From assembly GCA_036630325.1 (NCBI GenBank), contig CP142737.1, positions 310,001 to 374,000 on the forward strand: DNA of 64,000 nt, given 5' to 3'. Under the pieces are notes generated by a model, which saw only the letters and a program-made list of their open reading frames with translations, made no database searches and was not told where the DNA came from. This stretch comes from Vairimorpha necatrix (lineage: Eukaryota). This document shows, in pieces, positions 1 through 33,403 of this stretch. Both the position numbers and the translations under genes were made by a program. The stretch's first letter is position 1, and every line of letters begins with the position of its first letter.

Positions 1-59
1 TCTAATATACTCAGACATTTAGTCCTCGTTACAATTTTTAGCATTAAAAATAAAATCAA

Positions 60-826
60 GTGCTCAGCCTAATGGTCGAAAGATGCTTCCGTTGAGCAAT
101 GCCCGAGTTCAAATCCCGAAGGTACCAAAATCGCTTCTACTTAATGAGATGAAGTTGGAACAACTTAGACGGCGAAAATGTTTACGATAATCATTAAGTT
201 GATCCAATAAAACATGTGGGGATACAGATCCAAAGGGATAGTACCTAGTGTAGAAACGCACCTCAAAGCCGAAAACAGTATCACCTTTGTGGTGACTTTA
301 TGATCCATAAGTATCTGATGGTACGGCTTAGTAAGCCTCATGGCTGGTGCACTCTAGAGTGATTACTAGAGTTAACTAAGAGACTAGACGAAGTGGACAA
401 TAGAAGATCTTGTGGACCCTATTCTACAAGATTCTTTACAAAGTGGCCGAAACTAATGAGAGAGGCTAGAGGTCAGTGCAGAAATATAAAGATGCCGGGC
501 TAGTGATGCGGGGTAAGAAGCCGTGTAGACGATGCAGATAATTATGTGCTTCTTGAGTTAGTACGATGATATCTAATTTCGGATTATAGTGAACTATGCC
601 TGTTAGGTATATCCGCCCAGGGTCACTGACGCGATCTAGGTATTAATGGAAAAGGATGCTTAGAATAAAAATATGATGGATACGGCCGAGCTTGCTGCAT
701 TGACATGTTATGAGAAAAGAGTTTTGGTGAGTAAGAATTTCACAATGCCAGTTGTATAAAGATCACACCTAATCCTTCTGGTGCCATGTGAGGTTCCCCA
801 CCCTTTATTTACTAAGAAAAAAAAAA
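60..826 (+). mobile_element. tRNA-headed SINE-like / Pol III-type structured element (~770 bp)
   Basis: tRNA-like head 60-127 with A-box-like AGCCTAATGG (66-75), B-box GAGTTCAAATCC (105-116), anticodon-like stem TGCTT/GAGCA and end GGTACCA. The body is GC-richer, non-coding and has several hairpins. A10 tail at 817-826. No TSD recognised. Confidence 0.7.
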
Positions 827-2558
827 TTAATTTTATATGAATAAAATTTCTTATTCTAATATTGTCATCGAAGATAAAAACTAATAAAGCAATGAATAGA
901 ATCTAAGAGGCATTAGATAACTCTAAAAATAATAAAAAATGTCAAGAGCACATTTTAAACCTAATTAATCCAAATTTTAGGTCTCATATATAATATTGAA
1001 CGAACTGGAAAAAAATTATCTAAAAAAAGAACTAGCTGGGGAATTTATATATTAACAAAAATTAATTTGATCTTCAAACAAGCGCGTATGATATCAATAT
1101 GCTTACACTGAAAACTAAATAGTCATAGGCAGACATTTTATTATACCATTTGTTTTTTTAAAATTGTTGTTTGTGGTGCGATACATACATCAACAATTTA
1201 TTCCGCAATTAGATAATATATGCCAAAATAAATTATAAATATTAAATTGAATAAAATTGTTTACTGCCCAGGTTACAATTAAAAATATGATGTAGGAAAA
1301 TTAATTTTGAGTTTATCGTTTTGGCTATAATTAAAAAAAACTCAATTTCTGTTCTTTCATCAATGTCCTCTTTAACAAATCACAGTAGTCCATTATATGT
1401 CTCTTAAGATTCTCTAAGATAATTAAATTATTTTAATATCGAGTGTTATGTGAAAAATTTTAGACTTTAGTCAGATTAATTCTATAACTGGCATTATATC
1501 TTGTAAATATGCAAATATTTGGCACATTTCAAACCTATTCTAAATGAATCCTTTTCTCAATCTTAAATCTTAATATTTAGCAATATCAACACCAGCATAG
1601 AACTAGGTCACGTTTGATAAGAATTATAAGATGATTCCAGTAAAATATTTTTATAGACGACTGTTTTTTAACCTATATTGGGTCTAAGTTGGCCCAATGA
1701 CCGATTATAATCTTTCCTTTTTCGTATAAAATTCGTGTTAAGTCATCCAATAATTCTAAAAATTAGGCTTCATAAGTGACTAATTTCTTATAGTTTATGA
1801 AAAAAAATCAAAAGACGCAATATACCTTCGATTGTTGTTCAATATTTTAGTTGATATTTATTTCTATAACATCGGGACAATTTTCATTTTTTAACAAATA
1901 TTATCTATACTTATCCTACGGGGTTATCTGCAAGTCAATAATACAATCGCTATTATGTACTTTACATTTATTTTCAATAATGATTCAAACGCAAATATAC
2001 ATCATATTATAGAGAAGATCTACAATGTTAACGCACAACAAGTTCTAAAAAGAGTCTTACAATTTAATTTTGGTTAAATTAGATATTTTAGAAAAAATAA
2101 TTTTTTGCTCGTTGGGCCGCAATCCTTCTATGAGTTGTAGTTAAGATAAATGAAGAGATTCAATAAGTCTGTGATACTTCCTGCTCTATATACCTTGGTT
2201 AAATTTTCTTTGAGACGATTTTTTGATTTTTTTGATTTTTTTACATAAGTTATACAAACGTAAGTACAACTATAATTTTTTTTACGATAAAAATTGGTTT
2301 ATAAATGAAATGGTCAACTTATAGTTTAAAAAGTTTACCAAGACTATATTGTCTTTTAAATTTTCTTTTGACATCATTGTGTTGACTTTATAAATTTTAT
2401 GAAAAATTCTCCTAAGTTATAATTCAAATTTTGAAATTAAATCTCCCGAAATACGAATATACCACTTATTTTCGAATTTCATGTTTTTTAATGTTTATTC
2501 GGACCTATCAATTTAAAATATAATATATATAATTTTTTTAAATTAACTAGATAATTTA

Positions 2559-3743
2559 TTAGTTATTTTCACCTGAATATCTCCCCATAAAAATAGGTAC
2601 ATTGCTAAATTGAGTTGATTCTTCATCCAAAGGCATATTCTCAACTATATAGAACAGAAAAGGCCTGTTTAATGTTATTTCTTTAATTGAATCCGACCTT
2701 GGAATGTATTGATTCCATTTTAATTCGACTTCTTTTATACCTTGTTCATTAATATCTACCATAGCAATATGTTCAAAATCATTTTTAGAATCTAAAAAAA
2801 AATTACCCAATTTTATAAATTTTTCATTTACTTTTTTTTCTTCTAAATTCTCTTTTGCAATATTTGTTTTCATTTCTGCTAAAAGATCAAATTTTGATTC
2901 AATTTTAAATTTTGGCATTTTAAGATTTATCACATGTTCTGTGGATTCTTCCATCATATCATGTAGTCCATTTCTATTATCCCCTGTAATAAATTTATGA
3001 ACATCAATAAGACTAATATCGTTTTTAGGAAGAACTGCGATAAAATTCATACAGTAAATATTTAAATGCATTCCAATAGCTATAAAATCATTTGTTTCAT
3101 ATTTAAACATTTTTTCGGTTTTTTGCATCATTGGTATTTTTATTTCTTTATTTTTGTTAATATAAAAAATTTCTTCCACCAATTCCAATGAGAAAGGAAC
3201 TTCCCATACAATTTTATACAACACAGTATTCAGTAGTTAAGTTTTTAAATCGTTAAGACTTATCTTCTTTAGTTTATTTACCTTCCATTTAGTTTCGCAA
3301 TCGACAGTTTGAATTATTAGCTGCGTTAAATCTTCTGATGTTATTTCGGGATCAAATTCATGAATTTTTACATTCGAAGACTTGAGAACGGGATTGACAT
3401 CTTCTTCTATAAGTTTTAAATCTTTATTGTAAAATACGAAGTTGTTTACATACACAAATCCTTCTGATTGTAATTTATACCAATGAGAAGACTCAAAAAT
3501 ATTGCGTAACTTAAATGATAAATTTCTAAATTCGTCATTATATATAATTCTACATTCAATATCATCTTCATGACTAAATTCCAGATACTCATGTCTAGCT
3601 AAATTATCAAAAACGTTGAAATAAACCCAAAGTAAATTAATAACTGACAAACAAGAGAATACGAATGTACTATCAGACTCTTGTAACATATGATTAAATA
3701 TATTATTAGATGTGTCTAGCATCATTATGTTTATATTGTTCAT
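2559..3743 (-). pseudogene. Serpin with one in-frame premature stop
   Basis: ORFs 3237-3743 and 2559-3224 are in the same frame (1185 nt in total) and read DLKT*LLNTVLYKIVW, where paralogs have K at the stop. Serpin motifs MMQK, AVLPK, MPKFKIES, LNRPFLFYI and FMGRY are present. Confidence 0.85.
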
Positions 3744-4836
3744 GTAAGGAGGACAATAAATAAAACCGATTTTAAAGAAAGTTAATTTATCATTTTGATG
3801 ATTGCAAGTCTAACAATGCTCTAATATAGCGTCTATTTTGAGATCTTTCTATACTTTTATAAATCAATATATCGAGACAATGCGCCAAAATATGCAATTA
3901 ATATAAATAAATTATTAATCTTATACTTTGAATCAGTATGATTTATATTTTTGTTATTACTCAGTTTTTTAATATACACAATTTCATAGTGTTAATTAAA
4001 AATAAATTATAAATTGGTAACATGCCATCAGATCGTAAAAATGATGTAACTATGAGCAAAAATATTGTTATATGATTATATCAAATTTACCAATGCCTTC
4101 ATATTGAAAAAAGATACTAAAATAGAACAAGTTATTTTTTTATGACAAATTGATTTACTTATTGACAAATTCTTATATAACAAAATATAGACTTGTTTTA
4201 CGCTCGAAAATATAATTAGATTTCATCATTGATTTTATTTTTTTACTGTTTTAAAATATAGATAGAGCTTTCAATATACAGTTGTATCCGAAAATAATTC
4301 TCCATATTTTAGTCTCATAATTTATACCAAAAAATATTATTACCAAAGTTTATTAAAGTCAATTTGTAAAACTATATGAAGTTATATTACATTTTACAAT
4401 AACAAGGCTTCACATTATTTGTCTAGAGTTTTTTGGTCAGTTTTATAATGCGAATTATATTTAATGACGTGGTGTTTGTTTTCTATTATTTTGAGATGAG
4501 GAATCTTATACTATTGAAAAACTGGAAAAAACAAATACAACGTTAAATAATACAAATAATTTGATAACGCAAATGTCATTACATTGATGAAACCCCGTTT
4601 TAACTTAATATAAGTACAACGCATAAAAAACACGTAATCTTATAGCTACTACACATCCATACATTGAATTCGATTTTTTAACGTCTTTGTATGAAGATTT
4701 GTTAGAAAGATTCATCCTCGCACCATATCGAAGAAAAACAATTATATATCCACATCTTCAGGACTTTTTGTTTATAACAAACATTAAATTAGATATTTAA
4801 GATAAAAAACTTGCTTTCAGTCAATAAAAAAGTTTA

Positions 4837-6015
4837 TTAGTTACTTTCCCCCGAATATTTTCCCATAAAACATGGAATAAAAACCATTTCCCCGGGTTCT
4901 ATATTATCTAACCATACCAAATCGACGATATAAAATAAAAACGGCTTGTTAAAAGTAATTTCTTTGACCGGCTCTGACTGCGTGAAATAAGATGAAGCAT
5001 TGGATTCAATTTCTTTTACGCCTTTCTCACTGATGTCAACCATGGCAACATGTTTGAAGTCTTCCTTGGAATTTAAAAATAATGTAATTATTTTTTTAAA
5101 TTCTTCGTTGCCGTTTTCTTTTTTAAATAACTTCTTGACAACCTCTGTTTTCATTTCGGATAGAATGTCGAATGTAGATTCGACTTTAAATTTTGGAATT
5201 TTAAGACAAACATTCCGTCTTTCTGATTTCGCCATTATATCGTGAATACCATTCCTGTTATCTTTTGTAATTAGTTTATGAACGTCCTGAAGACTCATAT
5301 TATTTTTAGGTAACACTGCTATAAATCTCAAAGAATTAACTGAACATATAATTTCCACCATTTGAAAGTCTCCGGTTTCGATTTCCCACATTTTTTCAGT
5401 TTTTTGCATCATTGTTATTTCTTTCGATTCATTTTCGTTGATGTGGAATGTTTCTGATATTAATTCGCTTGAAAACGGGAATTTCCAAACATTTTTATAT
5501 AGTGTTGTGTTCAATAACGTATTCCTTATATCATGATGACATATTTGTGAAAGTTTATTCAATTCACAGCCCGTCAAATATGTTACTGTATAGGTAATAA
5601 GTTTTGACAAATTTTCAATTTTTATGTTAGATCCGAATTCTTGAATTATTATTTTCTGAGATTTTAAAATCACATCAGAAATCGTGTTTATTAGTTTTAA
5701 ATCCACATTACAAAATATAAAGTTATTCGTTTGTACATAGCTTTTTGATCTTTTTGCACTATAACATGATTCAATAAAAATGCGATTGATTCGTGAATTA
5801 AGATCTTTGAATTCTTGATTATAAATTCTTTTACATTGTTCTAAATCTTCAGCACTAAATTCTGGCCACTCATGTCCGGATAAATTTACGAATGCATTGA
5901 TATAAATCCAAATTAAATTAACAACGGATAAAGGAGAGAATACTAAAGAATCTGTCGATTCTTGTAAAAGCTGGTTAAATAGATCATTAGATAAGTCTAA
6001 AACCATGTCGTGCAT
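4837..6015 (-). CDS. Serpin family protein (392 aa)
   Basis: VFSPLS, W-x-FPF, MMQK, AVLPK, IPKFKVES, FNKPFLFYI and FMGKY motifs; no signal peptide seen. Confidence 0.9.
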   Translation of the reverse strand: MHDMVLDLSNDLFNQLLQESTDSLVFSPLSVVNLIWIYINAFVNLSGHEWPEFSAEDLEQCKRIYNQEFKDLNSRINRIFIESCYSAKRSKSYVQTNNFIFCNVDLKLINTISDVILKSQKIIIQEFGSNIKIENLSKLITYTVTYLTGCELNKLSQICHHDIRNTLLNTTLYKNVWKFPFSSELISETFHINENESKEITMMQKTEKMWEIETGDFQMVEIICSVNSLRFIAVLPKNNMSLQDVHKLITKDNRNGIHDIMAKSERRNVCLKIPKFKVESTFDILSEMKTEVVKKLFKKENGNEEFKKIITLFLNSKEDFKHVAMVDISEKGVKEIESNASSYFTQSEPVKEITFNKPFLFYIVDLVWLDNIEPGEMVFIPCFMGKYSGESN

Positions 6016-8237
6016 TTTATACGTTTTTAAGGATTAAAAAAAACATTTATAATTTTTAGATTAATTGATTTATTTGGCACATTTATAATAGAAATTTAAT
6101 GATATACATTCCATTTTTTTAGTTTATTTTTTGAATAACTTTAATTTTATAGCTTTTCGACAGAAATATAAATTTTTTTTCAATGGGCACAACATTGTAT
6201 ATATATACCCATAAGCTACATTTTTTAAAATTTATTAAAATGTGATTGTGTAAAATAAATTAAGCAATATCCGCTTTGTTATGTCTTTTATTAGATACAA
6301 TTTGTATCTAAATTCCTTATAATCATGTTGATTTCTTTGAGAAATTCAAACATATATAATATAATAAAAACTAAATAAATATTCATATAGATTTTGTAAG
6401 CTAGTTTACAAAGAAAAATTTTTATTTGTTGTTTAAATCCATAACTTATACATGTTAAATATCACTTTAATTTTTTGAAAAGTGCGAAACAAAAAAATTG
6501 GGTTAATCTAAAAACCACTCGTGATATTGTGGTAAACATGTCAACAAACATAAATGTAATGGAACCATAACTTTGCACTTATACTTTACAATATTTTTTT
6601 CGATAAACACCCAATTGTTATTAATTTTTGCTTTTAAAATTGTGCACTACGAGTATAAACTAATTGTTAAAGTGTTACAATAGAAATCAAAACTTAATAA
6701 ATTAGTTGTTATCAATTGCAAAACTTTCTATGTATATTTGAGACATCAGCAAAAAAAAGTTATCAAAAATCGATGTAGTTTAGTTTTAATAAAACTTTAC
6801 CTTCCAATTTGTAAGAGACTATCACAAATATAGAAAAGGGTTTTTCAAAACGCCACAAGCGTTGGCCTCCATAAGTGTTGATGCCGAATAACATTTGTTC
6901 TAATTGTAATACCTTAGTATTTTTACGAATAAGGCTAAAATTGTAGTTATCTCGATTAACAGCAAATATAGAGACTGTTATTAGATGCGTTATGAAGAAA
7001 AATGGCATTGAAATGTCATTTGTTGCAGATGATTGAGTATATAATGAATATAGCGCTATTATTTTGTAACATGTGTAAATATTAAAGTTTTAGGTTGACA
7101 AGTATAAATAAATTGTGCGCACAGATAGATCTGATTTTTATTTTTGATCATATTAATTTTGTAACTTATTTTAAAAAAAGAATAAATCAATATTTTTAAA
7201 ACCGATTAATTATTTATTGTTTTTTGTACAAATTTGATAATTACATTTATTCTATTTTTATGATGTGTTCACATGTTAAAATCCTCGATTAAAATTGCAT
7301 TATGTTCAATTCGTGCATTGAAATGCAATGCATACTATATAAAGTTTTTTTTCAAAGCACATGATTTTGTAAAAGTAGGCTTTATCGATATTTATGAATT
7401 GTTATGTGATTGAAAAAATATATTGATACTCAAAACAATGTGTCGCTATGCAACAAACATTTTTTTTCTATTGTTGGAATTTGTATATAACAGTATGACA
7501 TGTTTATTAAAACGCTTCGTGGCATTTAATGCAATTTTATAGGTTCAATACACAAAATTGTTGATCAAAACGCACATCAATTTAGGCATGAAATGATATG
7601 TGTTTAGAAAAATCAAAAACAATTACGACCCAGACAATCATCTGTATTTTCATGTGGTCTCTTAAATTATATGAAGTTTCGATGTTAATTCTCGAAGAAC
7701 CTTGGTATTTTAAATTAATAAATTGTAGACGTAATTCGAGATAAAAAAGATAAAAGCTCCGACGCAATGTAGTACCAAGTAAAATCGTGTGGAAAAAAGA
7801 GCGAATAGTGGTCTATTGTATTTATGAACCAGTACGATATGTTTTTTACAGACAATTCAACATACAAAAAAAACTATTTATGCTGCTAGATATAAAACGA
7901 TCTACATATAAGAGGTAAATGTTTTTTTTATACCGAAGATAATTAAATGTATAATGACTCGCTGGATCAGGAACTTCTTTTTATGATAATTTTTAAGATT
8001 CACGTAAATCGAAAGGTTTCTTTTATCGGTATAAATAGACAAACTTGATTATTTTGGCATTAATTTGCGTAAAATAAGTTAGCAAACTTTCATTATATAA
8101 AATATAATTAAAAATTTACCGAGTTATAAGCTTTGAATAGGTAAAATACGTTTGTTGTCAGATCGTGTCCTCACATTTTTTTGCAATAAAACATTGATAA
8201 TTTTTATAAATAAGCTTGAAATGTTAAATTCATTATT

Positions 8238-9428
8238 TTATTCAATATTTTCTCCAGAATATCTTCCCATAAAAATCGGTACACTACTAAATCTTTTTAA
8301 TTCATCATCTAACGCTATATTTTCGACAATGTAAAATAAAAAGGGTCTGTTCAGTTGTATTTCCTTAAATTCATCTGACTCTGATGATGATGACATTTTT
8401 AATTCTATGTCATTTGCGCCATGATCATTAATATCAACCATAGCTATATGTTCAAAGTCGGTTTGAGAATTAATAAAAACATTTTCAAAATTTATGAAAT
8501 TTTCATCAATGTTATTTTCTTTAAATATCTTTTTTACAGATTCATTTTTCATTTTAAATACAAGATTTAGTACCGATTCTACCTTGAAACTTGGCATTGT
8601 AAGTGTTAAGAAGTGCTCTGTTGCTTTTGACATCAAATCATTCAATCCATTCCTATTGTTTCCAGTAATTGATTTGTGGATATCAAAAAGATTTTTATCA
8701 TTTTTAGGAAGCACTGCTATAAAATTCATACAATATATATTTAACGGCAATGTTACCGCTATAAAATCATCTGTTTCAAATTTTAACATTTTATCAGTTT
8801 TTTGCATCATTGTTATTTTTACAGTTTTATTTTTGTTAATATAAAAATTTTCATTTTCTAACTCCGTTATAAAGGGAATTTCCCAGACACTTGAATACAA
8901 CACGGTATTTAAAATTTTTGTATTGAGATTATTACGACAAACATTTGGAATCTTGTTTAATCTCCATTTAACTTCAGAATTTATAGTTTGACTTATTAAC
9001 TTTGATAGGTCTTCTGACTTCAATGATGATTGATATTCAGTAATAATTAGATTTGGTGACCTAGTAATTTTTTGATCGATTTCAAATATTAGGTTTGACT
9101 CGTCTTTACAAAATATAAAGTTATTTAGGTATACGAATCCTTCAGAATGTCCTTGTTCTAAAAACCAATTGGTTTTGTCAAAAATATTGCGAATTTGATG
9201 ATTTATATCTGTAAATTCGACGTTATATGATTTTTTACGTTGAACAAAATTTTTAAGGTCAAAATCTAGACAAGTATCTCCAGCTATTTTTTCATAAACA
9301 TTAAAATATATCCAAAGAAAATTAATAACCGAAAAAGGAGAGAACACAAAGGTATTTGTATTTTCCTGTAACATTTGATCATATATAACATCGGATATAT
9401 CTAGCATCATATCGTGCAATTTATACAT
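8238..9428 (-). CDS. Serpin family protein (396 aa)
   Basis: VFSPFS, WEIPF, MMQK, AVLPK, LNRPFLFYI, FMGRY; close paralog of 12084-13271. Confidence 0.9.
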   Translation of the reverse strand: MYKLHDMMLDISDVIYDQMLQENTNTFVFSPFSVINFLWIYFNVYEKIAGDTCLDFDLKNFVQRKKSYNVEFTDINHQIRNIFDKTNWFLEQGHSEGFVYLNNFIFCKDESNLIFEIDQKITRSPNLIITEYQSSLKSEDLSKLISQTINSEVKWRLNKIPNVCRNNLNTKILNTVLYSSVWEIPFITELENENFYINKNKTVKITMMQKTDKMLKFETDDFIAVTLPLNIYCMNFIAVLPKNDKNLFDIHKSITGNNRNGLNDLMSKATEHFLTLTMPSFKVESVLNLVFKMKNESVKKIFKENNIDENFINFENVFINSQTDFEHIAMVDINDHGANDIELKMSSSSESDEFKEIQLNRPFLFYIVENIALDDELKRFSSVPIFMGRYSGENIE

Positions 9429-12083
9429 TATGGCTAAAAAAAATAAAAATATATAGTTTCAAAAATAAATTGACTGATTTGAACTGTAATTATAATTACC
9501 ATAACAACTGAAAATATTGTGTAGAGTATTATGGTTCTATCAATCGTCCCTTTTAGGCCAAAAAATGTATTTATCGATTTTTGACAGCACAAGCAAAACG
9601 ACCAACAAGTAAAAGAACAAACAGAATATATACAATAAATAATTTTCTTCTTTTTTTGAGAAAAAAATTCAAAACATTTCAATTTTAGGTTTTTGGATTA
9701 AAATTAAAATTCTAAACAGTTTCTTTATAAATTTACATGTATTAGCGAATTTTAAATATTATTTGTGATATCAATCATTAATTAAGAATTAAAAAAAAAA
9801 CTTTGTATTTTTTACTAATTAAATATTTCTTCAAGGTGATTTTGACGTATGTAATAATTTGTAGATAATTATTTAATATGGCTAGCTCGTTGTGTTACTA
9901 GAACCGAACTAGTTATAACTTAACCATAGAGGACCATTTGTTACAAAATTATACTGAAGGTTGTAAGTATGTAATATTTGAATATTTGATATTTTTTAAT
10001 ATCAAAAAATTTGAAATGATAAAAAAATGGGTAAAATCATTTTATAAGATGTAATTTAGTTTTTATCGTAATTAGTTTTACTTTTTACCATAAGCTTTAT
10101 AGCCTTATACGTCTATTTGTTGTTAACTATAAAGAAGCAATTAGTATATAATTATCATTTTTACAATATCAGCACAATTTTTTAAACATTATAATAGAGT
10201 TTGTAATTAATCTTTATACGCTTATTAACTAGTAAAAAATCATGGTTTTAATTCCAGGCAGTTTCCATATTGATTATAATTTTTGCAATATGTTAAGACA
10301 GTTTGGATTTGTAAATAATTATAAATAAATGTTATAAGATGCATCAACTAATGTTAAGGTTCGGCCTTTGATATGAAAATTAAGCTTTACACATATATAT
10401 ATATATAACATTGTTACATTGTATTTATAGAATAATATAATAATTTACAAATAAATCTAATTGATTTAATTTGAAAAATTTCATTGTCCGTAGTTTTCAT
10501 GTCTCCATGTTTTATCATTGGAATAAAGCATAATGAAATTTGTTTTTTATAGAAAAAACAAATTGAAGATAGTTTCTAAAAAAATTATTAAGACAAAATA
10601 AGAGGATCAAATTTTTTTACGTTAAAAAATCGATTTCTGCCAATTTTTTATTTCAATTTGCACCGAGTATCACATAAAGTTTAATTACATATCTAAGCTC
10701 AAATACAACAAGTCTTAAAAATTTTGTATTATATTGAAGATTAAAATTACTATATCGCTTAAAGGAAAATTTTTATAGAATTATAATAACAATTTTTGCC
10801 CATTCTTAGCAAATAATGCCTACTGCTATACTTATATTTTGTTTACAACACCAAATTTAAGTTTTATAGATGATTTTTCTTCAACGCAATCTTTATCATC
10901 ATTTTTCTATGCAAGTCTTAAACCTCCCTTTTCCAAAAAAGATTTAAAAATTTAATTATAGAATGTACAACAACGTTAAATTAGAAAAAGAATATAATAG
11001 ATACAACAATTTATATATAAGAAATAAATTCCCGAGTAAAAATGTTTTTTAAATGCCGAATAAGTGTTCATTTAATCTTTTAACTTGATCCTGGCCGCGG
11101 ATGACGATGCGTGTCATAAAAAGCAAAATATTTTTCTCATTAAAGTTTCCAGTTAATCTTGACACCATAATCTTTATTATTGTTTAATTAATGTTTTTTA
11201 TGAAATCCATAGATAAGTATAATGCAATAAAAACCCTTCTGAAACGCTGCAGATTTTATGTAAATAAATAAGAGCCATGCATTGTCTGTTGATGATTGCT
11301 CCTTCGAATATTTTGTTCGATACTAGTCTCTCATAATCTAGGTCAATGTTACATCTTTCAAAAGACTATTTAGCTAATAAATGTTTTTAAAATTGCTTAT
11401 TTTAAAGAACTTGTGCCAGTGAACACACATTGCATTTTGAAAAGGTATAATAAATTTTCTTGTGGGATATTGAAAAAAAATTGTTTACGTATCTCATATA
11501 GACGTTTATTAATGGGGATTTTGCCTATGTTGTGTTTTTTTTCTACTTTCAAATATTGTACAATACTTTCTTTTTTACAAATTTGTAATCCTCGTCGATT
11601 CCCCATGAAAGAGTATGTTATCTACAAAATCTAAGTCCTCGGCTTTATTTTTATCAAATATTGCCGGAATCAATTCATAAAACCTTATCATCTCCTTGCA
11701 GTATTTTGCGAGAAGATCATACTTTAACGAGTCTTGTTTACTTTCATATATACGAAATAAATTTTTTTAATTTTAATAGTCTAATCATTTTAAATGTATT
11801 TCTGTTAGCTTCAGACGTTCGCTTTGACGTTGCGTATTGCATATATGAGATCAAGTCCCCCGTGTGTGAAAAATTAATTTATAACTAAAAGATTTTAATC
11901 TAAATGTGTACTGACTATAGATATTAAACTTTAATTGATGAAATTTTGAAACTTATATCATTTGAATAAGAGAGATTCCAAAAAACGTGTTGGTAGCTAA
12001 TCCGCTAGGCTCGGCGATAAAAATACTTGTCTTATTGATACTTAATTTGCAATAAAACATATATAAATTTGTTTAAAATGAAT

Positions 12084-13271
12084 TTATTCAATATTTTCTC
12101 CAGAATATCTTCCCATAAAAATCGGCACACTACTAAATCTTTTAGCTTCATCGTCTAATACTATATTTTCAACAATGTAAAATAAAAAGGGTCTGTTTAG
12201 TTGTATTTCTTTAACTTGATCCGACTCTGATGTATCAGATGAAATTTCCAATTCTATATCATTTGCGCCATGATCATTAATATCAACCATAGCTATATGT
12301 TCAAAATGATTTTTTGAATTAGAAAAAATATTTTCAAAATTAATGAAATTTTCATCAATGTTATTTTCTTTTAATATTTTTTTCACAGGTTCATTTTTCA
12401 TTTTAGATGCAAGATTAAGTACAGATTCGATTTTAAATTTTGGCATTGTAAGATTAATTGTATTTTCTGTTGCTTTTGCCATTATATCATTCAATCCATT
12501 CCTATTATTTCCCATGATAAATTTTTGAATATCACAAAGATTTTTGCCATTTTTAGGAAGCACTGCTATAAGATTCATACAGTATACATTTAATGGCAAT
12601 CCAATTGCTAAAAAATCTACAGTATCATATTCGAACATTCTATCAATTTTTTGCATCATTGGTAATTTTACAGTTGTATTTTCATTGATATAAAAATTTT
12701 GCTCATCTAACACCGTTAAAAAAGGAATTTCCCAGACACTTGTATACAACACGGTATTCAAAAATTTTATCTCAAAATTCTTACGACAAACATCTGGAAT
12801 CTTGTTTAACAACCATTTGGTTTTATTATTTACAGTTTGTACTATTAGATTTGGTATATGCTCAGTTTCTAAAGTTGGTTCAAATTCTTTCAAAACTAAA
12901 TCCGGCGTATCAACAATATCTTGTTTAATTTTACTTATAAGGTTTAATTTTTTGTTACAAAATACAAAGTTATCCTGGTACACTAAACCTTCGGTTTGTT
13001 TTTTATACCATTGAGAAGATTCAAATATATTGCAAAACTCGATGTTTAAATCGTGGAATTCGTCATTATATGTTTTAATACATTGAATATAATCTTTAAA
13101 TACAAATTCTGGACTCTCATGTTTGACAATTTTTTCATGAACATTAAAATATATCCAAAATAAATTAATAATGGACAAAGGAGAGAACACAAAGGTATTT
13201 GTATTTTCCTGTAACATTTGATCATATACTTGATCGGATATATCTAACATCATATCGTGGAGTTTGTACAT
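12084..13271 (-). CDS. Serpin family protein (395 aa)
   Basis: Same serpin motifs. Start reassigned to ATG 13271 (CCCATAATG, MYKLHDMMLD as in the paralog) rather than the TTG in the ORF track. Confidence 0.9.
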   Translation of the reverse strand: MYKLHDMMLDISDQVYDQMLQENTNTFVFSPLSIINLFWIYFNVHEKIVKHESPEFVFKDYIQCIKTYNDEFHDLNIEFCNIFESSQWYKKQTEGLVYQDNFVFCNKKLNLISKIKQDIVDTPDLVLKEFEPTLETEHIPNLIVQTVNNKTKWLLNKIPDVCRKNFEIKFLNTVLYTSVWEIPFLTVLDEQNFYINENTTVKLPMMQKIDRMFEYDTVDFLAIGLPLNVYCMNLIAVLPKNGKNLCDIQKFIMGNNRNGLNDIMAKATENTINLTMPKFKIESVLNLASKMKNEPVKKILKENNIDENFINFENIFSNSKNHFEHIAMVDINDHGANDIELEISSDTSESDQVKEIQLNRPFLFYIVENIVLDDEAKRFSSVPIFMGRYSGENIE

Positions 13272-14619
13272 TATGGGTATAACGATTAACAAAAATATAT
13301 AGTTTTTATGACGTTTGATAGATTTGAAATATGATGTATATTTCAGTATAAACTTTGTAAAATGTAAAGCATCGTTTTTCGAATAAATTGAATTTATAAG
13401 ATTTAGAAAAAATTAATAAATGGAATTTTGACACAACGAAGAAAAGTTATCGCGTATAATGTTATTGAGTTAAAGTCGGCTTTAGCAAAAAAAATTCAAT
13501 ATAGGATTTTTTGTTTTTGAATTTGTTAATTGTCAATACATAGTCAACAGTACGTTTTACCAATATAAATTAGTATGAAATGGGTTGTTTTAAAAATTAA
13601 AAGCATTTTATATTATTTTGATATTTTATATCAGAAAAGGTTCCAAAAAACGAAATTTTACTGATCGATGCCGTATCGAGCATGTCAAAAATAACTTTTA
13701 TCGTGTTATCATCTAATAGTTTAGCTATTAGCTACGCTTTATAATTAAAATGTCATTATTAATGTCTTAAAATCAATGATATCTGCATTGGACTTTATTT
13801 TGTTTACTGATTAACTTGTTTGTTTTATAGAATTGCCCTTTATAGTGCATTCTTAATGTCGCAGACATAACAACAATATTTTTCTCTATTTGATTTTTTT
13901 TATGTATATGATAAATCATTATAAGTATTTTATTTTGTGCATCAAGAAATGTTTTCAATATATTGGTTTAACTCTATAAAAGTTATTCATTATTATAACT
14001 GCGCTAAAAGTGATAGTATTCTACCATAAAAATTTTATTGCATTTATAAATTCTTATAATTTTATACTTACAAGTTATTATAAAAAATTTAAGCCTCGCA
14101 TTAATTTCGCATTTGATTGTACACGTATTTTTATAGCATTTCACAATTTACATACTTATTTTCTGGTAACAGTAGTCGCGCTATATATGGGACGCACCTA
14201 TCTTAACTTTTGTTCCCTCTGTATTGTTTTACATGTTGCACATAGTGTATTTAAATGTCTGTTATTTTTTAATAAAAAACATGTCCCCATAATGATCTCT
14301 AGTAATCCTATCAAATCTGTCATATTTTTTTTATCACTTTGATGTCTTTATATTGATTACCTTTATAACAATTACATTTATAAACATCGTAATATCTTAA
14401 CGATTTTTTTATAAGAGCCATTTACTTTGTAGATATTTTCCGCCTTTTAAAAACAAACTGAAGCTCTACTTTTGTATTTTTTTATTATAAATAAATTCAA
14501 TATTTATAAAAACAGCAAACTAATAGTTATAAACGTATCCATAATATTTTTAGGCTCCTAAATGTTTTACCTTGAGTCACTATTTTTTAAAAAGTCATTT
14601 TTTGGTAAATAAACATTCA

Positions 14620-18406: not shown

Positions 18407-18596
18407 ACGTCGATTTTACTATTCAGAATCGTTTGTTTAGTTCATCGAGTCAGCATTGTGAAAGCAATGAAAACTATAAAACTAGGATGAAGAGTAAAGA
18501 CAGCTATCCAATTTTGAAATTTAGAAAGAACTTGTTCTTTCTTACTGATGATAATTACTAGTATTTAGTATATGGGTAGCTGTGATCTGACTAGTT
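18407..18596 (+). ncRNA. U3: U3 snoRNA
   Basis: CCC motif at 18402; box A'/A-like GATTTTACT...TTCAGAATCGTTT; terminal stem AACTAG(18480-85)/CTAGTT(18591-96) flanking box C' GATGAAGA and box D CTGA(18587-90); stem CAGCTATCCA/TGGGTAGCTG; hairpins AGAAAGAA/TTCTTTCT and TACTA/TAGTA either side of box C TGATGA(18546-51). 5' end approximate. Confidence 0.85.
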
Positions 18597-20357: not shown

Positions 20358-20390
20358 AAAAAGGGGATACTAAAAATATAAAAATAAAAT

Positions 20391-20461
20391 TGGAGCCACC
20401 AGGAATCGAACCCGGGCCTACTGCTTGCGGAGCAGCCGCTCTACCGCTGAGCTATGACCCC
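20391..20461 (-). tRNA. tRNA-Ala(CGC)
   Basis: GGGGTCA TA GCTC AGCGGTA GAGC G GCTGC TCCGCAA GCAGT AGGC CCGGG TTCGATT CCTGG TGGCTCC A; G3:U70 Ala identity pair. Confidence 0.93.
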
Positions 20462-20548
20462 ATAAAATAGGAAGAAATTTATATTTAATCGGCACATTTA
20501 TCGTGTAGAAGAAATGAATCTCATAATAACACAGATATGTTTGTAACC

Positions 20549-21127: not shown

Positions 21128-22030
21128 AAAAAAACTAATAGACATAAAATGTGCTGGAAAAATAATAAATAAACACAATGAACGACGAAAGACTCATGAT
21201 AGCGTTTCATGTATAAATATGGTTAAGTTATATATAACTCCTGCATGTAAGCGCGTTATAAAAAAAAGGTAGTCGAAAAGGCAACATTATAGTCTCATTC
21301 TTCGGATATGTTACAAAGTTAAATGCATTTTTATAAACAATTGACAAAATACACTGAATCTTGACAAAATATTTCTAATGAAAAACATCTATAGTTTAGA
21401 AACCCAAGACGATGATATATTGATAATTTACAATAAGTTTTTGAGATTTTGACAATTGCAAAAGAAATTTAAATAATGCGTAAGTGTAAAATCAATATGA
21501 ACAGCATGGGGCAAAAGGAGGACAATGAACTGGAAATCTGAGTTTACCCAGCAATTGTCCAAAAATTAAACGAAAAAAAATGTCGTATTGCAGGACGAAA
21601 GCGAATTTGTAAATATAGTGTAACCTCTGGCCGTATTGTCTGATATTATTGCTGCATAAAACACTTGTGTATTTACTATGTTCTTTAATTTTGTCTTATT
21701 ATTTTGATCATAATTCTTAAAAGGATTTTTTTATACCATAAGTTGCTGCAAATCTGGTCTCGTATTCCTTTTTGTATGCTGGTCTATAATGCATACTTAC
21801 TTAGATCTGTCAATAAAGATATTTTCTATGAGAACTGGGTGAAATAATGTAAAATTTCGCTAGTACTATATTTATGGTGTGATTTTATACCTTAAAATAT
21901 CACATGTGACCAGTATTTCAAAATACATAATTTCATAAATCATATGAGGTAATAGTTGCAATAATAAAGCTCATTACCAAAAATTAACATGGTTTAGTAT
22001 ACGAAAAATCGTTTTTTATTATGTACATAA

Positions 22031-22079
22031 TATAAGTGCTTAACATAATTGGGGTTTAATATTATTACTGATTATAACA
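22031..22079 (-). repeat. 3' LTR (49 bp)
   Basis: Minus strand TGTTATAATCAGTAATAATATTAAACCCCAATTATGTTAAGCACTTATA, preceded by the PPT. Confidence 0.9.
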
Positions 22080-22095
22080 TCCCCCCTCCAGACGG

Positions 22096-25000
22096 TTAGT
22101 CTCCTTCAACATACTTTAAATCCCCTACACCCTTAAGATCATAATGCCTTTTTTTCACCAACCTTCCATTCTCTAATCTCACTATATATGAATCCCCTGG
22201 ACATAGCTCAATCACTCTTCCCATGTCTAAAAATCGGCCCTTACTATACTTACTACATCCCTTTAAATTCTCATTCTTGGCAACCCTAACTATCTGGTTC
22301 CTTTTGAACTTTTCTCTAAACCAACTTTTGAACTGTTGCGCATACTTTCCCTCTGGACTATTCTCCATACTAACATTTCCTGTATTATCGGTTAAAGCTT
22401 CTACTGGCGTACACTTAATACCAGCATGAAAACTTAAATTATATTTCTCAATAGCTTCATAAACCTTGTTCTCGAATTGCTCTTTTTGGCTCTTTAAAAT
22501 ACTATCTCTTACAGTTCTAATAACTCTTTCTACTCTTCCATTACTTCTGTGCGACTCAACGCTGACCTTTCTATGACTAATATCCAAATTTCTACATAGC
22601 TCGGTAACTTTTTCGTTGCAAAGCTCTTTACCATTATCCGTAATGATTTCCTCTGGTTTTCTACCCTGTTTACACAAATCCTTGATAAATTCGGCAATTC
22701 CAGATGCGTGCTTGCTCTTCAATACTCTGCCCCATAATCTCCTTGTAAAGTAATCAACTGCCAAAACAATAAACGCTTTCTCATCCCTAAATTCTATTAA
22801 ATCTAAGCCAACCTTCTCTAAATATCTTGTCGTGTTCACTAAATCAGTACCGCCACTCGTTTTTCTATTAAAAATCTGACAAGTCTCGCAATTCTTAAGG
22901 ACCTTTTCGATCTGATCCTTAATTCCTGGCCAATAATACTGTTTCCTCAACTCATAATATACCGTTGTTCTGCTTCTGTGGCTCAAATTTACATGACAAT
23001 CCATTATTAATCTCTCTCTGTCTTGTTCCAAAGGCATCTCGCCTTCTCTACCACTATCAAATACCCAGTATTCTTTACCTTCTACAATTTTTACATGCTT
23101 ATTTCTTTTCCCTTCTTTTTGTCTATCACGGCGTGTTTCATTTCTCTTTTTCTTTGCATCTTTTTCTTTTGTATATACCCTACTTAGCGCATCGGCTACG
23201 ACCATATTTTCTGGAGTTCTATATTCTATCACGAAATCAAATTCCTGAATCTTCTCGACCCATCTATTAATTCTAGCATTCTTAAAGTCGGGCTTGTTTC
23301 TTATTTCGCCCAACGCTTTATGATCAGTTTCTATTCTAAAGTTCCTACCTCTTAATTCATATTCAAACTTTTTAACGCCCCAAAAAATTGCGTACATTTC
23401 TTTTTCTGATATACCATAATTAACTTCCGTAACGGTAAACTTCTTAGACGCCCACTGTACTGGCACCCATTCTCCTTGATTTTATTTCTGTAACAGTACT
23501 GCGCCCATACCTACATTACTAGCGTCAGTCCTCAACAAAAATTCTTTATGATAGTCTGCTATTTGCAGCTTTCCTAGGCCTTTCAATACTTCTTTTAAAT
23601 TATTAAACTCGTTTTTCATATCATCCGTCCACTTCCAATTATCATTCTTCCCTTTTAAACTATCTGTCAACCTAACTGTCAATCCAGCGTAATTCTTAAT
23701 AAAATCTCTGAAACAACCCGTCATTCCTAAAAATCTTCTTACATCTGACACGCATGTTGGTATCGGAAACTCTAGGGCTTCATTTTTCTTTATCTCTGAC
23801 GGTATTATATCTTCTCCATTTAAAGTGACTCCCAATAATTTAACTTCCCGTTGACAAAACTGAACTTTATTTGCATTCAGCTTCATATTGTTTTCCTTCA
23901 GTCTATTTAATACCCTTTTCACTAATTGCTCGTGTTCTCCTATCGTTCGGCTGTACAACACAATATCGTCCATATACACCTCTAATCCTTTGCCTTTCAT
24001 ATCTCTAAAAATCCTATCCATAATTCTCTGCAATATCTGCGGGCTATTCTTATATCCCATAACCATAGAGTTCCATTCATAAACCTTGCCATTAAAATCA
24101 AACGCCGTCTTATGTTTATCCTCCTCCTCTATCTCAATACTATAGAAGGCCTCTTTAAGTCGAAAACCGTCATATATTTTGCACCTTGTGTAGCTCTTAC
24201 AACATCTCTTATGTTAGACAATCTATACTCGTCCTTTTGTACAATATCGTTCAATGCCATCAAATTACTAACCAGTCTTATATCACCATTTGGCTTTCTG
24301 ATTGACCTTATAGGATTCCTCCAACTTGAATTTGACTCTCTTATCACTTTCCTTTTTAATAAATCTTCTAGATGTAGCTCTGTATCTTTTATCAACGCCT
24401 GCGGAACCATTTGTCCCTTTTTAAATACCTTCATACCCGCTTCAGTATTAATTTTACATTTTTCCAGTTTACAATATTTTATCTCCTCTTTTCCTAACTT
24501 AAAAACCTCTCCAAAACTCTTAGCATACTTATCTAAATTTAATCTGATTCTCTTACTCTCCTCTTTAACGGCATATTCTTTTTGATTTTTCTCAAATTTG
24601 ACTCTAAGTCCTCTTTTTGATCTTCTAAAATCTCGCTCCTGACTTGACTCTGATTCACTACCTACTTCCATTTTGCAACTGTTATCCTTGTTATTCTTTT
24701 TATAATAATTATCTCTATTAATCTTCAGTCTGCATTCAAACACCCTATGCCCTTGTCTATCACAATAGAAGCATCTCGGTACTCTCGATTTTTGTCTTGG
24801 TTGTTCTCTACTAATTTCTTCATTTATAGTCCTAGAAATAATTTTTCTCATTTCCTCATATATCTTTTCTTTTTCCTCTACTTCCTTAATCCTTAACAAT
24901 AGCTTCTTCCTTATTCCTTCAATATTTTCTTCCTTTTTGATATTTCTCACAATAAAATCTTTTAAATCCATCGAAGCCAACTTGAACAGCTCACTCTTCC

Positions 25001-25139
25001 ATTTCACTCTATCTACATCTCTCAAATCCAATTCATACAATATACGCTCTAACTCCTGTAACATCTTTCTGACCACTTGGCCACAGTCCTCTCTTGTGAA
25101 CTCTTCTTTAGGTATCGCCCCCATATAAGTGCTTAACAT
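22096..25139 (-). pseudogene. Gag-Pol polyprotein (CCHC knuckle, RT, RNase H, integrase) with one frameshift and one nonsense codon
   Basis: CFYCDRQGHRVFEC; RT YMDD; RNase H LRTDAS, ETDHKAL, ADALSR; integrase HHCC plus GLD/TDNG/VER. A 1-nt deletion near 24155 (GACTTAAAGAGGCC, expected DLKEAFY) and an in-frame TAA at 23482-84. Repaired length is about 1014 aa. Confidence 0.9.
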
Positions 25140-25172
25140 AATTGGGGTTTAATATTATTACTGATTATAACA
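25124..25172 (-). repeat. 5' LTR (49 bp) containing CCCC motif and Gag ATG
   Basis: Identical to 22031-22079; ATG at 25139 lies inside it; followed directly by the PBS. Confidence 0.9.
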
Positions 25173-25819: not shown

Positions 25820-26962
25820 ATGAATACATTTAATAACATGATGCTAGATATATCTAACACTATGTTTTATGGGCTTTTACAAGAATCAGAAAATACACTT
25901 GTCTTCTCTCCGTTGTCGGTTATTAATTTACTTTGGTTGTATTACAACGGATCTGAAAATCTAAAAGACAGAAATGAATATGATTTAAAATCTTATAATC
26001 GAGAATTTAAAGATTTAAATGAAAAAATTTGCAATATTTTTGAAAGTACTCATTGGTATAAAAAACAATCCAAAGGATTTGTGTACATAAATAATTTCGT
26101 ATTTTACAACAAAGACCTGAAACTTATAGATAAAGAAATTTTTACGTCGACAAATGTTAAATTACAAGAATTTAAACAAGGCATTAAGGCAAAGACTTTA
26201 TCAAAACTAATAAAACGAACAGTGAATAAAACCACCAAATGGAAGATAAACGAAATTTTGAATATCAAAAATAATGTGTTAACTGCAAAAAATTTGAATA
26301 CTGCACAATATAAAAGTGTCTGGAAAACATTTTTCTCAAATGTGCTAGTACATGAAAATTTTTATATCAGGGAAAATAAAATAATAAAAATTCAAATGAT
26401 GCAAAAAAAAGACAAAATGTTAGTATTAGACACAAATGATTTTATAGCAGTTGGTGTGTCATTAAATATAGCAAATTTGAAATTTGTCGCAGTACTTCCT
26501 AAAAATAATAAAAAGCTACAAGATATTCATTATGAAATAAATAAAGATAACATTTATGGACTTCATGATATGATGGCAAAAGCAGAGAGGAATATTGTAA
26601 ATCTTAAAATGCCTAAATTTACAGTAGAATCAAAATTTGATATTTTTAAAGAAATGAAAACAGAGGCTATTGGAAATAAAGCAGAATTTACAGATTTGTT
26701 AGAAAGCTTTTTAAAGTCTGAAAATGACTATGAACACGTCGCAATGGTTGATATTAACGAACAAGGCGTTAAAGAGAAAGATTCATCATCAGATATGTCA
26801 GACGACGACGAAGAAGAACTAAAAGAAATAATATTGAACAGACCATTTTTATTTTATATAGTTGATTCAGTTTTTGTTAATCTTGGTTTATCTAGATCTG
26901 TCTATACACCAATATTTATGGGAAAATATTCGGGTAATAATAACGAAAAAAATTTGCTTTAA
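25820..26962 (+). CDS. Serpin family protein (380 aa)
   Basis: VFSPLS, MMQK, AVLPK, MPKFTVES, LNRPFLFYI, FMGKY; CCCC upstream. Confidence 0.9.
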   Translation: MNTFNNMMLDISNTMFYGLLQESENTLVFSPLSVINLLWLYYNGSENLKDRNEYDLKSYNREFKDLNEKICNIFESTHWYKKQSKGFVYINNFVFYNKDLKLIDKEIFTSTNVKLQEFKQGIKAKTLSKLIKRTVNKTTKWKINEILNIKNNVLTAKNLNTAQYKSVWKTFFSNVLVHENFYIRENKIIKIQMMQKKDKMLVLDTNDFIAVGVSLNIANLKFVAVLPKNNKKLQDIHYEINKDNIYGLHDMMAKAERNIVNLKMPKFTVESKFDIFKEMKTEAIGNKAEFTDLLESFLKSENDYEHVAMVDINEQGVKEKDSSSDMSDDDEEELKEIILNRPFLFYIVDSVFVNLGLSRSVYTPIFMGKYSGNNNEKNLL

Positions 26963-30209: not shown

Positions 30210-30305
30210 CTTTTTGTATCAGTTATATCCCACTCTTTTCTTCTTACATTGTTCAATACATGTTTTATGTTTTTTAATAAATTATTTATGAATTAAAATC
30301 TTTTT

Positions 30306-33380: not shown

Positions 33381-33403
33381 CAAATAATAAAAAAAATAAA
33401 CAT

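What the first reader, a model, noticed from the sequence alone, without database searches (positions are those of the whole stretch)
60..826. Long tRNA-headed Pol III element with a densely structured RNA body
Seen: a tRNA-like head, then ~690 nt of non-coding, GC-richer sequence with stems TCACC/GGTGA (281-295), GGCTT/AAGCC (325-337), ACTCTAG/CTAGAGT (351-372), ATCTTGTGGA/TCTACAAGAT (407-432, with G:U) and GTG-TAGAAAC-GCAC, then an A10 tail. The + strand has no T5 and only one T4 (722-725) over 770 nt, whereas the flanking DNA is full of T-runs. That fits selection against Pol III terminators. It is much longer than typical SINEs. I recall a similar-sized Pol III-promoter repeat being noted in Nosema ceranae without a function; this recollection is unverified. 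Inference: a mobile structured ncRNA (SINE, possibly ribozyme- or guide-like) of unknown mechanism.
Basis: partly seen in the sequence, partly recalled or inferred. Interest (0 to 1): 0.75.

Follow-up and report, generated by a model that had tools for sequence, protein, structure and literature searches.

The report
Lone SINE-like insert in a microsporidian
A 760-base non-coding, unusually GC-rich insert in a Nosema/Vairimorpha-type parasite genome starts with a worn-out tRNA copy and looks like a retroposed SINE-type element, and nothing shows it to be a specially folded RNA.

Summary
Window 57-826 is a sharply bounded 41% GC island in 25-27% GC DNA. It starts with A- and B-box motifs, has no ORF over 64 aa, and ends in A10. 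The head is tRNA-derived. It aligns to the window's own tRNA-Ala genes at z 4.4-5.2, but the cloverleaf is lost: there is no Rfam tRNA hit, and ARAGORN calls it only at a 70% threshold. An A-rich 11-mer (10 of 11 identical) abuts both ends, against 0.7% of mock placements, which suggests a target-site duplication.

Folding is no better than shuffled sequence (whole element z -0.99; 120-nt windows mean -0.36, minimum -2.07). The lack of T-runs follows from the element's own composition (P = 0.38).

Only one copy lies in the 64 kb. No genome or sequencing run was available. DNA-motif and protein searches found no relative. So copy number, transcription and a LINE partner are untested.

The recalled Nosema ceranae repeat carries a candidate polII promoter, not Pol III.

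Best reading (about 0.5): a tRNA-derived, SINE-like retroposed insertion, possibly foreign. SINE-like elements of 700-900 bp are already listed for fungi. Interest is low to moderate.

The parts
46..56 (+). Candidate 5' target-site duplication, AAAAATAAAAT, directly abutting the element
   Evidence: It matches 817-827 at 10 of 11 positions. A match this good at both borders occurs in 64 of 8986 mock placements in the window, or 0.7%. The sequence is low-complexity and the word length was chosen after seeing it, so this is suggestive only.
57..127 (+). Decayed tRNA-derived head with Pol III type-2 promoter motifs: A box 65-75 (CAGCCTAATGG) and B box 106-116 (AGTTCAAATCC)
   Evidence: It is one of only 5 A+B pairs (<=2 mismatches each, spacing 24-60) on both strands of the 64 kb. 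Three of the five are the true tRNA-Ala genes. Global alignment to the three tRNA-Ala genes gives z 4.4-5.2 against shuffles. ARAGORN calls a cloverleaf only at threshold <=70%, and there is no Rfam tRNA hit.
128..816 (+). Non-coding body, 41% GC, purine-rich on the + strand (56%)
   Evidence: The longest stop-to-stop frame is 64 aa. All six frames carry 17-28 stops per 320 codons. By my own estimate from base composition, chance would give about 22 (+) and 17 (-). No Pfam hit has E<0.1. phmmer against 1.84 billion proteins gave no hit for frame 249-815+. Nothing else in the window resembles it.
351..372 (+). 7-bp perfect hairpin, ACTCTAG/CTAGAGT
   Evidence: Present. The local 120-nt window starting at 340 gives the best z, -2.07, which is not significant across 46 windows.
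407..432 (+). 10-bp hairpin with one G:U, ATCTTGTGGA/TCTACAAGAT
   Evidence: Present. The 120-nt windows that contain it give z -2.07 (start 340), -0.56 (start 370) and -0.44 (start 400), none significant.
722..725 (+). The only T4 run on the + strand inside the element; a possible weak Pol III stop
   Evidence: The next T4 run lies just past the A-run, at 832-835.
817..827 (+). A10 run plus T: a poly(A)-like tail and/or the 3' copy of the target-site duplication
   Evidence: The + strand of the 64-kb window has only 7 runs of A>=10, and one of them sits exactly at the 3' border of the GC island.

Best explanation
Window 57-816 (or up to 826) is an inserted retroposon of the SINE type. It is a copy of an RNA that began with a tRNA-derived leader carrying an internal RNA polymerase III promoter (A and B boxes), continued through about 690 nt of non-coding sequence, and was reverse-transcribed into an A-rich target, leaving an A-rich duplication at both ends.

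Shown here: the sharp compositional borders, the promoter-like boxes at the 5' border, the tRNA ancestry of the head, the absence of coding capacity, and the A-rich repeats at the ends.

Inferred: transcription by Pol III, mobilisation by a LINE reverse transcriptase, and membership of a multi-copy family.

At 41% GC the body is more GC-rich than the host's genes, its U3 snoRNA and its other transposons. The insert is therefore probably young or of foreign origin, for example from an insect host. Host-derived transposons are reported for Nosema bombycis. This copy shows no sign of a selected RNA fold and is most likely an inert insertion.
For: - The GC island has sharp borders at about 51 and about 800 and is the most GC-rich tile of 633.
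- The A+B box pair is at the very 5' end. Only 5 such pairs occur in the window on both strands, and 3 of them are real tRNAs. A composition-matched shuffle carries one in its first 120 nt 0.5% of the time, and anywhere in 3.1%.
- The head aligns to the window's tRNA-Ala genes with z 4.4-5.2. The T-arm stretch is about 16 of 19 identical by my reading of that alignment.
- Read against the recalled degenerate consensus GTTCRANNCC, the B box is fully intact while the stems are broken (acceptor 5 of 7, T stem 3 of 5). This is the usual state of SINE heads.
- The A10 run sits exactly at the 3' border, and the + strand of the window has only 7 runs of A>=10.
- The candidate TSD is 10 of 11 identical and abuts both borders, against 0.7% of 8986 mock placements.
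- There is no coding signal.
- Body GC is 0.41, against genes 0.30, U3 0.31, gypsy 0.35 and flank 0.25.
- LINE families are reported in every Nosema species in Table 1 of PMC4202319 (4-15 families). PMC3614468 Table 2 lists SINEs as 0.18% of the N. bombycis genome and reports host-derived transposons.
Against: - Only one copy lies in 64 kb.
- No relative was found anywhere I could search. A head 22-mer and a body 26-mer each gave 0 hits in the viral and prokaryote genome collections. A head 18-mer gave 35 metagenome loci that match nothing beyond 18-26 nt. These collections hardly cover microsporidia or insects, so the blanks are weak evidence.
- The head does not score as a tRNA with Rfam or with default ARAGORN.
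- The TSD is low-complexity, and its length and borders were chosen after the fact.
- The window holds no LINE: the only reverse transcriptase is in the Ty3/gypsy element. The 3' end matches nothing else in the window beyond A/T-rich words.
- Transcription was not examined.
Confidence: 0.5

Rival explanations
1. Chance composite. A decayed tRNA pseudogene, or merely box-like motifs, happens to abut an unrelated GC-rich non-coding fragment. That fragment could be the 3' untranslated end of a 5'-truncated LINE, another transposon remnant, or a piece of horizontally acquired DNA. On this reading the locus is neither one Pol III unit nor a SINE family member.
For: - The element is single-copy in the window.
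- The head fails the tRNA covariance model.
- An A+B pair occurs somewhere in 3.1% of composition-matched shuffles.
- The + strand is purine-rich (56%), like the sense strands of the window's gypsy element and of TrpRS.
- The A-run could be the poly(A) tail of any retrocopy.
Against: - The boxes sit exactly at the 5' border of the island and in the same orientation as the A-run (0.5% for the first 120 nt).
- GC stays high without a break from head to tail.
- No frame shows any coding remnant.
- The window holds no LINE to be truncated from.
Confidence: 0.27
2. A resident single-copy gene for a long (about 660-770 nt) Pol III-transcribed non-coding RNA whose promoter lies in a tRNA-derived leader. 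From memory, yeast RPR1 (RNase P RNA) and SNR52 are built this way.
For: - The promoter boxes are kept while the cloverleaf is lost.
- There is no T5 within the unit, with T4 runs at 722-725 and at 832-835 just past the A-run.
- GC is maintained far above the 25% of the flanks.
- It is single-copy.
Against: - There is no excess folding stability, globally or locally.
- The genome's own U3 snoRNA has only 31% GC, so function does not require 41%.
- No Rfam family matches, including RNase P, MRP and SRP, at E<=10.
- There is no template for the TTAGG-type telomere repeat reported for Vairimorpha necatrix in PMC10759460, which argues against telomerase RNA.
- The A-rich duplication at both ends points to an insertion.
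Confidence: 0.08
3. One reading: a mobile RNA whose body is a selected, densely folded functional structure (ribozyme-like or guide-like).
For: Two hairpins are longer than expected singly: 7 bp perfect at 351-372 and 10 bp with one G:U at 407-432.
Against: - Whole-element z is -0.99, and 4 of 20 shuffles fold as well.
- The 23 local + strand windows have mean z -0.36 and best z -2.07.
- No ribozyme or other family matches in Rfam.
- Stems of 5 bp are expected several times by chance in 767 nt. This is my own estimate of about 4-5 for loops of 3-8 nt, not a tool result.
- Covariation could not be tested because there are no homologues.
Confidence: 0.03

Closest known systems
tRNA-derived SINEs of fungi, including the long SINE-like elements listed in the introduction of PMC5063351 (Egr1 700 bp about 50 copies; egh1/EGH24 900 bp; mgsr1 800 bp about 40 copies; MgSINE 472 bp), and the low- or single-copy AfuSINE2 families of Aspergillus fumigatus (same paper; abstract and passages read)
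   Same: tRNA-related head with degenerate A and B boxes, an extended tRNA-unrelated non-coding body, short flanking direct repeats, a size of 700-900 bp, and low copy number in some families.
   Different: No second copy, no transcript and no LINE-matching tail could be shown here. There is no sequence similarity to any named family. None could be searched directly, because no Repbase, Dfam or SINEBase library was available.
SINE fraction tabulated for Nosema bombycis (0.18% of the genome; Table 2 of Pan et al. 2013, PMC3614468, passages read)
   Same: Same clade of microsporidia and the same repeat class. The same paper reports host-derived transposons in Nosema.
   Different: That paper only tabulates the class and describes no element. 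Whether this element is related is unknown.
The ~700-bp novel dispersed repeat of Nosema ceranae (Cornman et al. 2009, PMC2685015, passages read; its Fig. S2 alignment is an image and could not be read)
   Same: Similar length, no conserved coding potential, no homology in the databases of its time, and a Nosema-clade genome.
   Different: That repeat is on 250 contigs, often in tandem, and carries a candidate polII promoter. This element is solitary in 64 kb and carries Pol III-type boxes. A head 18-mer and a body 26-mer (both strands) are absent from the roughly 2 Mb of N. ceranae contigs held in supplement 2.
   Same: A and B boxes lie in a leader upstream of a longer non-tRNA RNA.
   Different: Those RNAs are conserved and structured. 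This body has no Rfam match and no excess structure, and it is flanked by a possible target-site duplication.

Membership tests
tRNA-derived SINE | 5' head derived from a tRNA, with internal Pol III A and B boxes | tested here: met
   A box at 65-75 and B box at 106-116, with <=2 mismatches each to the recalled consensus and 30-nt spacing. It is 1 of 5 such pairs in the window, and 3 of the 5 are true tRNAs. Alignment to the window's tRNAs gives z 4.4-5.2. Caveat: no Rfam tRNA hit, and ARAGORN calls it only at <=70%.
tRNA-derived SINE | Non-coding, tRNA-unrelated body | tested here: met
   Longest frame 64 aa. Stops are at about chance density in all six frames. No Pfam hit. No hit in 1.84 billion proteins for frame 249-815+. 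Only 3 of the 6 frames were searched against large protein libraries, and each only in part.
tRNA-derived SINE | A-rich or LINE-derived 3' tail | tested here: inconclusive
   An A10 run is at the 3' border, but it may be part of the target duplication. The LINE-tail match could not be tested, because there is no LINE in the window and no genome was held.
tRNA-derived SINE | Target-site duplication flanking the insert | tested here: inconclusive
   46-56 and 817-827 are 10 of 11 identical and abut both borders, against 0.7% of mock placements. The repeat is low-complexity and the test was post hoc.
tRNA-derived SINE | Multiple dispersed copies in the genome | tested here: inconclusive
   One copy in the 64-kb window. 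The rest of the genome (the window's own contig is 992,507 nt) was not available. External exact-motif scans were blank or chance.
tRNA-derived SINE | Transcribed by RNA polymerase III | not testable with these tools
   No sequencing run was listed, so no reads could be laid.
Nosema ceranae ~700-bp dispersed repeat (Cornman 2009) | Sequence similarity to that repeat; frequent tandem copies; candidate polII promoter | tested here: inconclusive
   Exact head and body motifs are absent from the roughly 2 Mb of contigs held. That is only about a quarter of the assembly, only exact matches count, and the repeat is said to sit mostly on short contigs. There is no tandem copy in the window. polII promoter prediction was not run.
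Structured functional RNA (ribozyme or other Rfam family) | Match to a curated covariance model | tested here: not met
   Only noise below every gathering score in 1-1200 and in 40-150.
Structured functional RNA (ribozyme or other Rfam family) | Folding energy beyond composition; covarying pairs | tested here: not met
   z -0.99 for the whole element and a best local z of -2.07. Covariation is not testable without homologues.
Solo LTR / MITE / Helitron | TG..CA ends with a short TSD; terminal inverted repeats; or 5' TC and 3' CTRR with a 3' hairpin, inserted between A and T | tested here: not met
   No terminal inverted repeat of the element's ends appears among 16 inverted pairs. By reading the sequence, there is no CA at the 3' border with a matching TSD, and the CTAA at 812-815 is followed by G, not T. 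These definitions are recalled, not looked up.

The most novel reading that the evidence does not exclude
The locus is a resident gene, not a dead insertion. It would encode a roughly 700-nt non-coding RNA transcribed by Pol III from a tRNA-derived leader promoter, kept GC-rich by selection in a 25% GC genome. That would be a long Pol III RNA of unknown role in a microsporidian. A less bold variant: it is a SINE captured from the insect host, which would be a documented host-to-microsporidian transfer of a non-autonomous retroposon.
Probability: 0.08. Interest if true: 0.65.

Novelty: new member of a known kind. Interest (0 to 1): 0.25.

Why it matters
If genome-wide copies confirm it, this would be a characterised tRNA-derived SINE family in the Nosema/Vairimorpha clade. 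So far SINEs there appear only as one line in a repeat table. Its GC content would make it a candidate marker of horizontal transfer between insect hosts and their microsporidia. As it stands, it is one probably inert insertion beside a serpin gene array. The more exciting claims, a structured RNA body and terminator avoidance, do not survive controls.

Tried and rejected
- Whole genome: none is held for this window.
- Sequencing runs: none was listed for 40-860, so read laying could not be used. No RNA holder was listed.
- Earlier scan notes: nothing by place, sequence or words.
- The listing of cluster members: switched off, and the query could not be made.
- Exact-motif scans:
  - The head 22-mer gave 0 hits in viral contigs and 0 in genome contigs.
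  - The body 26-mer gave 0 hits in both.
  - The head 18-mer in metagenome contigs gave 35 loci. All are chance: blastn shows only 18-26 nt aligned, and the loci have GC 0.31-0.66.
- Gypsy integrase as bait for related contigs in viral contigs: 23 pattern hits, none confirmed.
- Protein-level searches for copies or coding ancestry:
  - Minus frame 469-762, with X at the one stop: no candidate.
  - Minus ORF 168-353: no candidate.
  - Plus frame 249-815, with X at stops, against 1.84 billion representatives: 0 hits.
  - The other three frames were not searched in large libraries.
- Pfam on 12 stop-to-stop frames of the element: one hit at E 0.17, which is noise.
- tblastn of all six frames against the rest of the window: nothing below E 0.5.
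- Telomerase-RNA idea: no stretch of 8 nt or more matches the CCTAA repeat on either strand.
- Solo LTR, MITE and Helitron readings: rejected on the end structure.
- Full-text search for two motifs of the element in papers: 0 papers.
- Window peptides (AspRS, serpin, ubiquitin, TrpRS) were not found in the N. ceranae annotation supplement. The nearest named TrpRS is Vairimorpha bombi at 77%. The window is therefore probably not N. ceranae, but cells in that file are cut at 400 characters.
- Two paper-tool calls failed on term syntax. The first was rephrased. The second was not repeated.

Full report
**Setting**

The window is AT-rich: GC is 0.267 overall and 0.20-0.37 per kb. It is packed with intronless ORFs. 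It carries:
- a eukaryotic U3 snoRNA and three tRNA-Ala genes;
- aspartyl- and tryptophanyl-tRNA synthetases;
- a ubiquitin-S27a fusion;
- seven serpin-like ORF sets, a Ty3/gypsy element and an IS1595/Merlin-type transposase.

The TrpRS has its best named relative in Vairimorpha bombi (77% identity), followed by other microsporidia. Its own contig is 992,507 nt long. Among microsporidia, serpins are reported only in Nosema and Vairimorpha (PMC10759460, passages read). The window therefore comes from a Nosema/Vairimorpha-clade microsporidian. Window peptides were absent from the N. ceranae annotation file, so it is probably not N. ceranae. No whole genome and no sequencing run were available.

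**Checking the observation**

- the hairpins at 281-295, 325-337, 351-372 and 407-432, and the small GTG..CAC motif at 248-262;
- A10 at 817-826;
- a single T4 run (722-725) and no T5 on the + strand.

The region is also the most GC-rich stretch of the whole window. In 50-nt bins GC rises from 0.26 to 0.42 at about position 51 and falls from 0.46 to 0.14 at about 800.

- T-runs. The paucity is what the element's own composition predicts. Dinucleotide shuffles carry 1.96 T4+ runs on average, and 38% of them have one or none. It says nothing about selection against terminators.
- Structure. The body is not more structured than shuffled sequence.
  - The whole element gives z -0.99, and 4 of 20 shuffles fold as well. 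The minus strand gives z +0.17.
  - Across 23 overlapping 120-nt windows per strand, with 200 shuffles each, mean z is -0.36 (+) and +0.18 (-).
  - The best single window, the one holding the 7-bp and 10-bp hairpins, reaches only -2.07.
- No Rfam family comes near its threshold in 1-1200 or in 40-150.

**The head**

ARAGORN at default settings finds no tRNA here. A cloverleaf ('Thr cgt', 59-127) appears only at a 70% threshold or lower. It has 5 acceptor pairs and 3 of 5 T-stem pairs. At 60%, two evidently spurious calls appear in the same 400 nt. Rfam's tRNA model does not match even when only 111 nt are searched.

The tRNA ancestry is nevertheless real.
- Global alignment of 59-127 to the window's three tRNA-Ala genes scores z 4.4-5.2 above shuffles. 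The variable-loop/T-arm stretch is about 16 of 19 identical by my reading of that alignment.
- A-box plus B-box pairs (<=2 mismatches each to the recalled consensus, spacing 24-60) occur only five times on both strands of the 64 kb. Three are the true tRNAs, one is this head, and one lies in a coding ORF. Composition-matched shuffles carry such a pair in their first 120 nt 0.5% of the time.
- Read against the degenerate consensus GTTCRANNCC, which I recall rather than looked up, the B box is intact and the A box has one mismatch, while the stems are broken. That combination is typical of SINE heads.

**The body**

- No stop-to-stop frame exceeds 64 aa. The six frames have 17-28 stops per 320 codons. 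By my own calculation from base composition, chance would give about 22 on the + strand and about 17 on the - strand.
- Twelve frames gave no Pfam match better than E 0.17.
- A read-through of frame 249-815+ found nothing among 1.84 billion protein representatives.
- Two minus-strand frames found no word-sharing candidate in the 5.8-billion-cluster collection.
- tblastn of all six frames against the rest of the window found nothing below E 0.5.

A recently decayed coding element is therefore unlikely. An anciently decayed one is hard to square with 41% GC in a genome where flanks are 25%, genes 30%, U3 31% and the gypsy element 35%.

**The ends**

The A10 run sits exactly at the 3' border, and the + strand of the window has only seven runs of A>=10.

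The 11 nt at 46-56 (AAAAATAAAAT) and at 817-827 (AAAAAAAAAAT) match at 10 of 11 positions and directly abut 57-816. A match of that quality at both borders occurs in 64 of 8986 mock placements of a same-sized element in this window, or 0.7%. This looks like a target-site duplication in an A-rich target. It is low-complexity, however, and I chose the word length after seeing it.

No terminal inverted repeats, LTR-type TG..CA ends or Helitron ends are present.

**Copies and relatives**

Within the window the element is unique.

Exact-motif scans gave no related sequence:
- a head 22-mer and a body 26-mer in the viral and prokaryote-genome collections;
- a head 18-mer in the metagenome collection, which gave 35 loci that all match over 18-26 nt only.

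Those collections barely cover microsporidia or insects, so the blanks say little. Multi-copy status, the defining property of a SINE family, is therefore open.

The window has no LINE: the only RVT_1 hit is in the gypsy element. The proposed tail comparison could not be made. LINE families are reported in every Nosema genome surveyed (Table 1 of PMC4202319, passages read).

**What it most likely is**

The anatomy has five parts:
- a tRNA-derived head with preserved Pol III boxes at the 5' border;
- a non-coding body;
- an A-run at the 3' border;
- a probable A-rich target duplication;
- a composition foreign to the genome.

This fits a retroposed, SINE-type insertion best (confidence about 0.5).

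Shown: the borders, the boxes, the tRNA ancestry, the lack of coding and the end repeats. Inferred: Pol III transcription, LINE-mediated reverse transcription and family membership.

The high GC suggests a young or horizontally acquired insert. Host-derived transposons are documented for N. bombycis (PMC3614468, passages read), but no host sequence could be searched here.

The main rival (0.27) is a chance juxtaposition of a tRNA relic with an unrelated foreign or transposon-derived fragment. A resident Pol III gene for a long non-coding RNA with a tRNA-like leader, as I recall for yeast RPR1 and SNR52, remains possible (0.08). Against it are the absence of structure, the absence of any Rfam match, the lack of a telomere template and the end duplication. 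The ribozyme-like or guide-like reading has no support (0.03).

**Comparison with what is known**

The length is not exceptional. The introduction of PMC5063351 lists fungal SINE-like elements of 700 bp (Egr1), 800 bp (mgsr1) and 900 bp (egh1/EGH24). The same paper describes tRNA-related SINEs of Aspergillus fumigatus that are low- or single-copy.

SINEs are tabulated, but not described, as 0.18% of the N. bombycis genome (PMC3614468, Table 2). The word SINE does not occur in the microsporidian transposon surveys PMC4202319, PMC7313128 or PMC12449221, or in the genome papers PMC10759460 and PMC8206274.

Cornman et al. 2009 (PMC2685015) report a ~700-bp dispersed repeat without coding potential on 250 N. 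ceranae contigs. It is often tandem, and its conserved motif is a candidate polII promoter. Its alignment is a figure I could not read. Two exact motifs of the present element are absent from the roughly 2 Mb of N. ceranae contigs held in the supplement.

**Verdict**

I class it as a probable new member of a known kind. Membership cannot be closed without the genome. Interest is 0.25.

Noticed in passing
window 2559-13412 (-) and 25820-29221 (+): Two opposed clusters of serpin genes (Pfam PF00079, E 1e-12 to 1e-31), 60-90% alike at the DNA level. One copy is interrupted by a single in-frame stop (2559-3236 / 3237-3809). Another is split by a frameshift (28071-28628 / 28544-29221). The studied element lies at the left edge of this array.
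   Followed up: partly
window 22030-25172 (-): A Ty3/gypsy retrotransposon (RVT_1, RNase H, integrase) is bounded by 50-nt perfect direct repeats at 22030-22079 and 25123-25172. The RT and RNase H-integrase parts are in one frame, separated by a single stop at 23482-23484. The upstream gag-like ORF overlaps in another frame. Its GC is 0.35, above the host genes.
   Followed up: partly
window 61137-62400: An IS1595/Merlin-type DDE transposase ORF (61319-62275, -) is flanked by roughly 120-nt inverted arms (81% complementary). The arms are built of tandem 28-nt A/T-rich units with G4/C4 blocks (61168-61267 and 62281-62400). This is probably a Merlin-like DNA transposon with long repetitive terminal inverted repeats.
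   Followed up: no
window 20390-20462 (-), 30139-30210 (+), 31045-31117 (-): Three tRNA-Ala genes (CGC, TGC, TGC) lie within 11 kb. The two TGC copies form an inverted pair 836 nt apart, with similarity extending about 15 nt beyond the tRNAs.
   Followed up: no
window 18410-18595 (+): A U3 snoRNA gene (Rfam RF00012, 62 bits) has only 31% GC. It served here as a yardstick for how GC-poor a functional RNA can be in this genome.
   Followed up: partly
window 44424-45161 (-), 52991-53734 (-), 57515-58264 (+): A family of roughly 245-aa ORFs with a hydrophobic N-terminus has no Pfam match. The copies at 53 kb and 57 kb form a 248-nt inverted repeat at 73% complementarity. They may be a lineage-specific family of secreted proteins.
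   Followed up: no
window 33269-33387: A tandem array of a 17-nt AT-rich unit (about 7 units by my count) lies just downstream of the ubiquitin-S27a gene.
   Followed up: no
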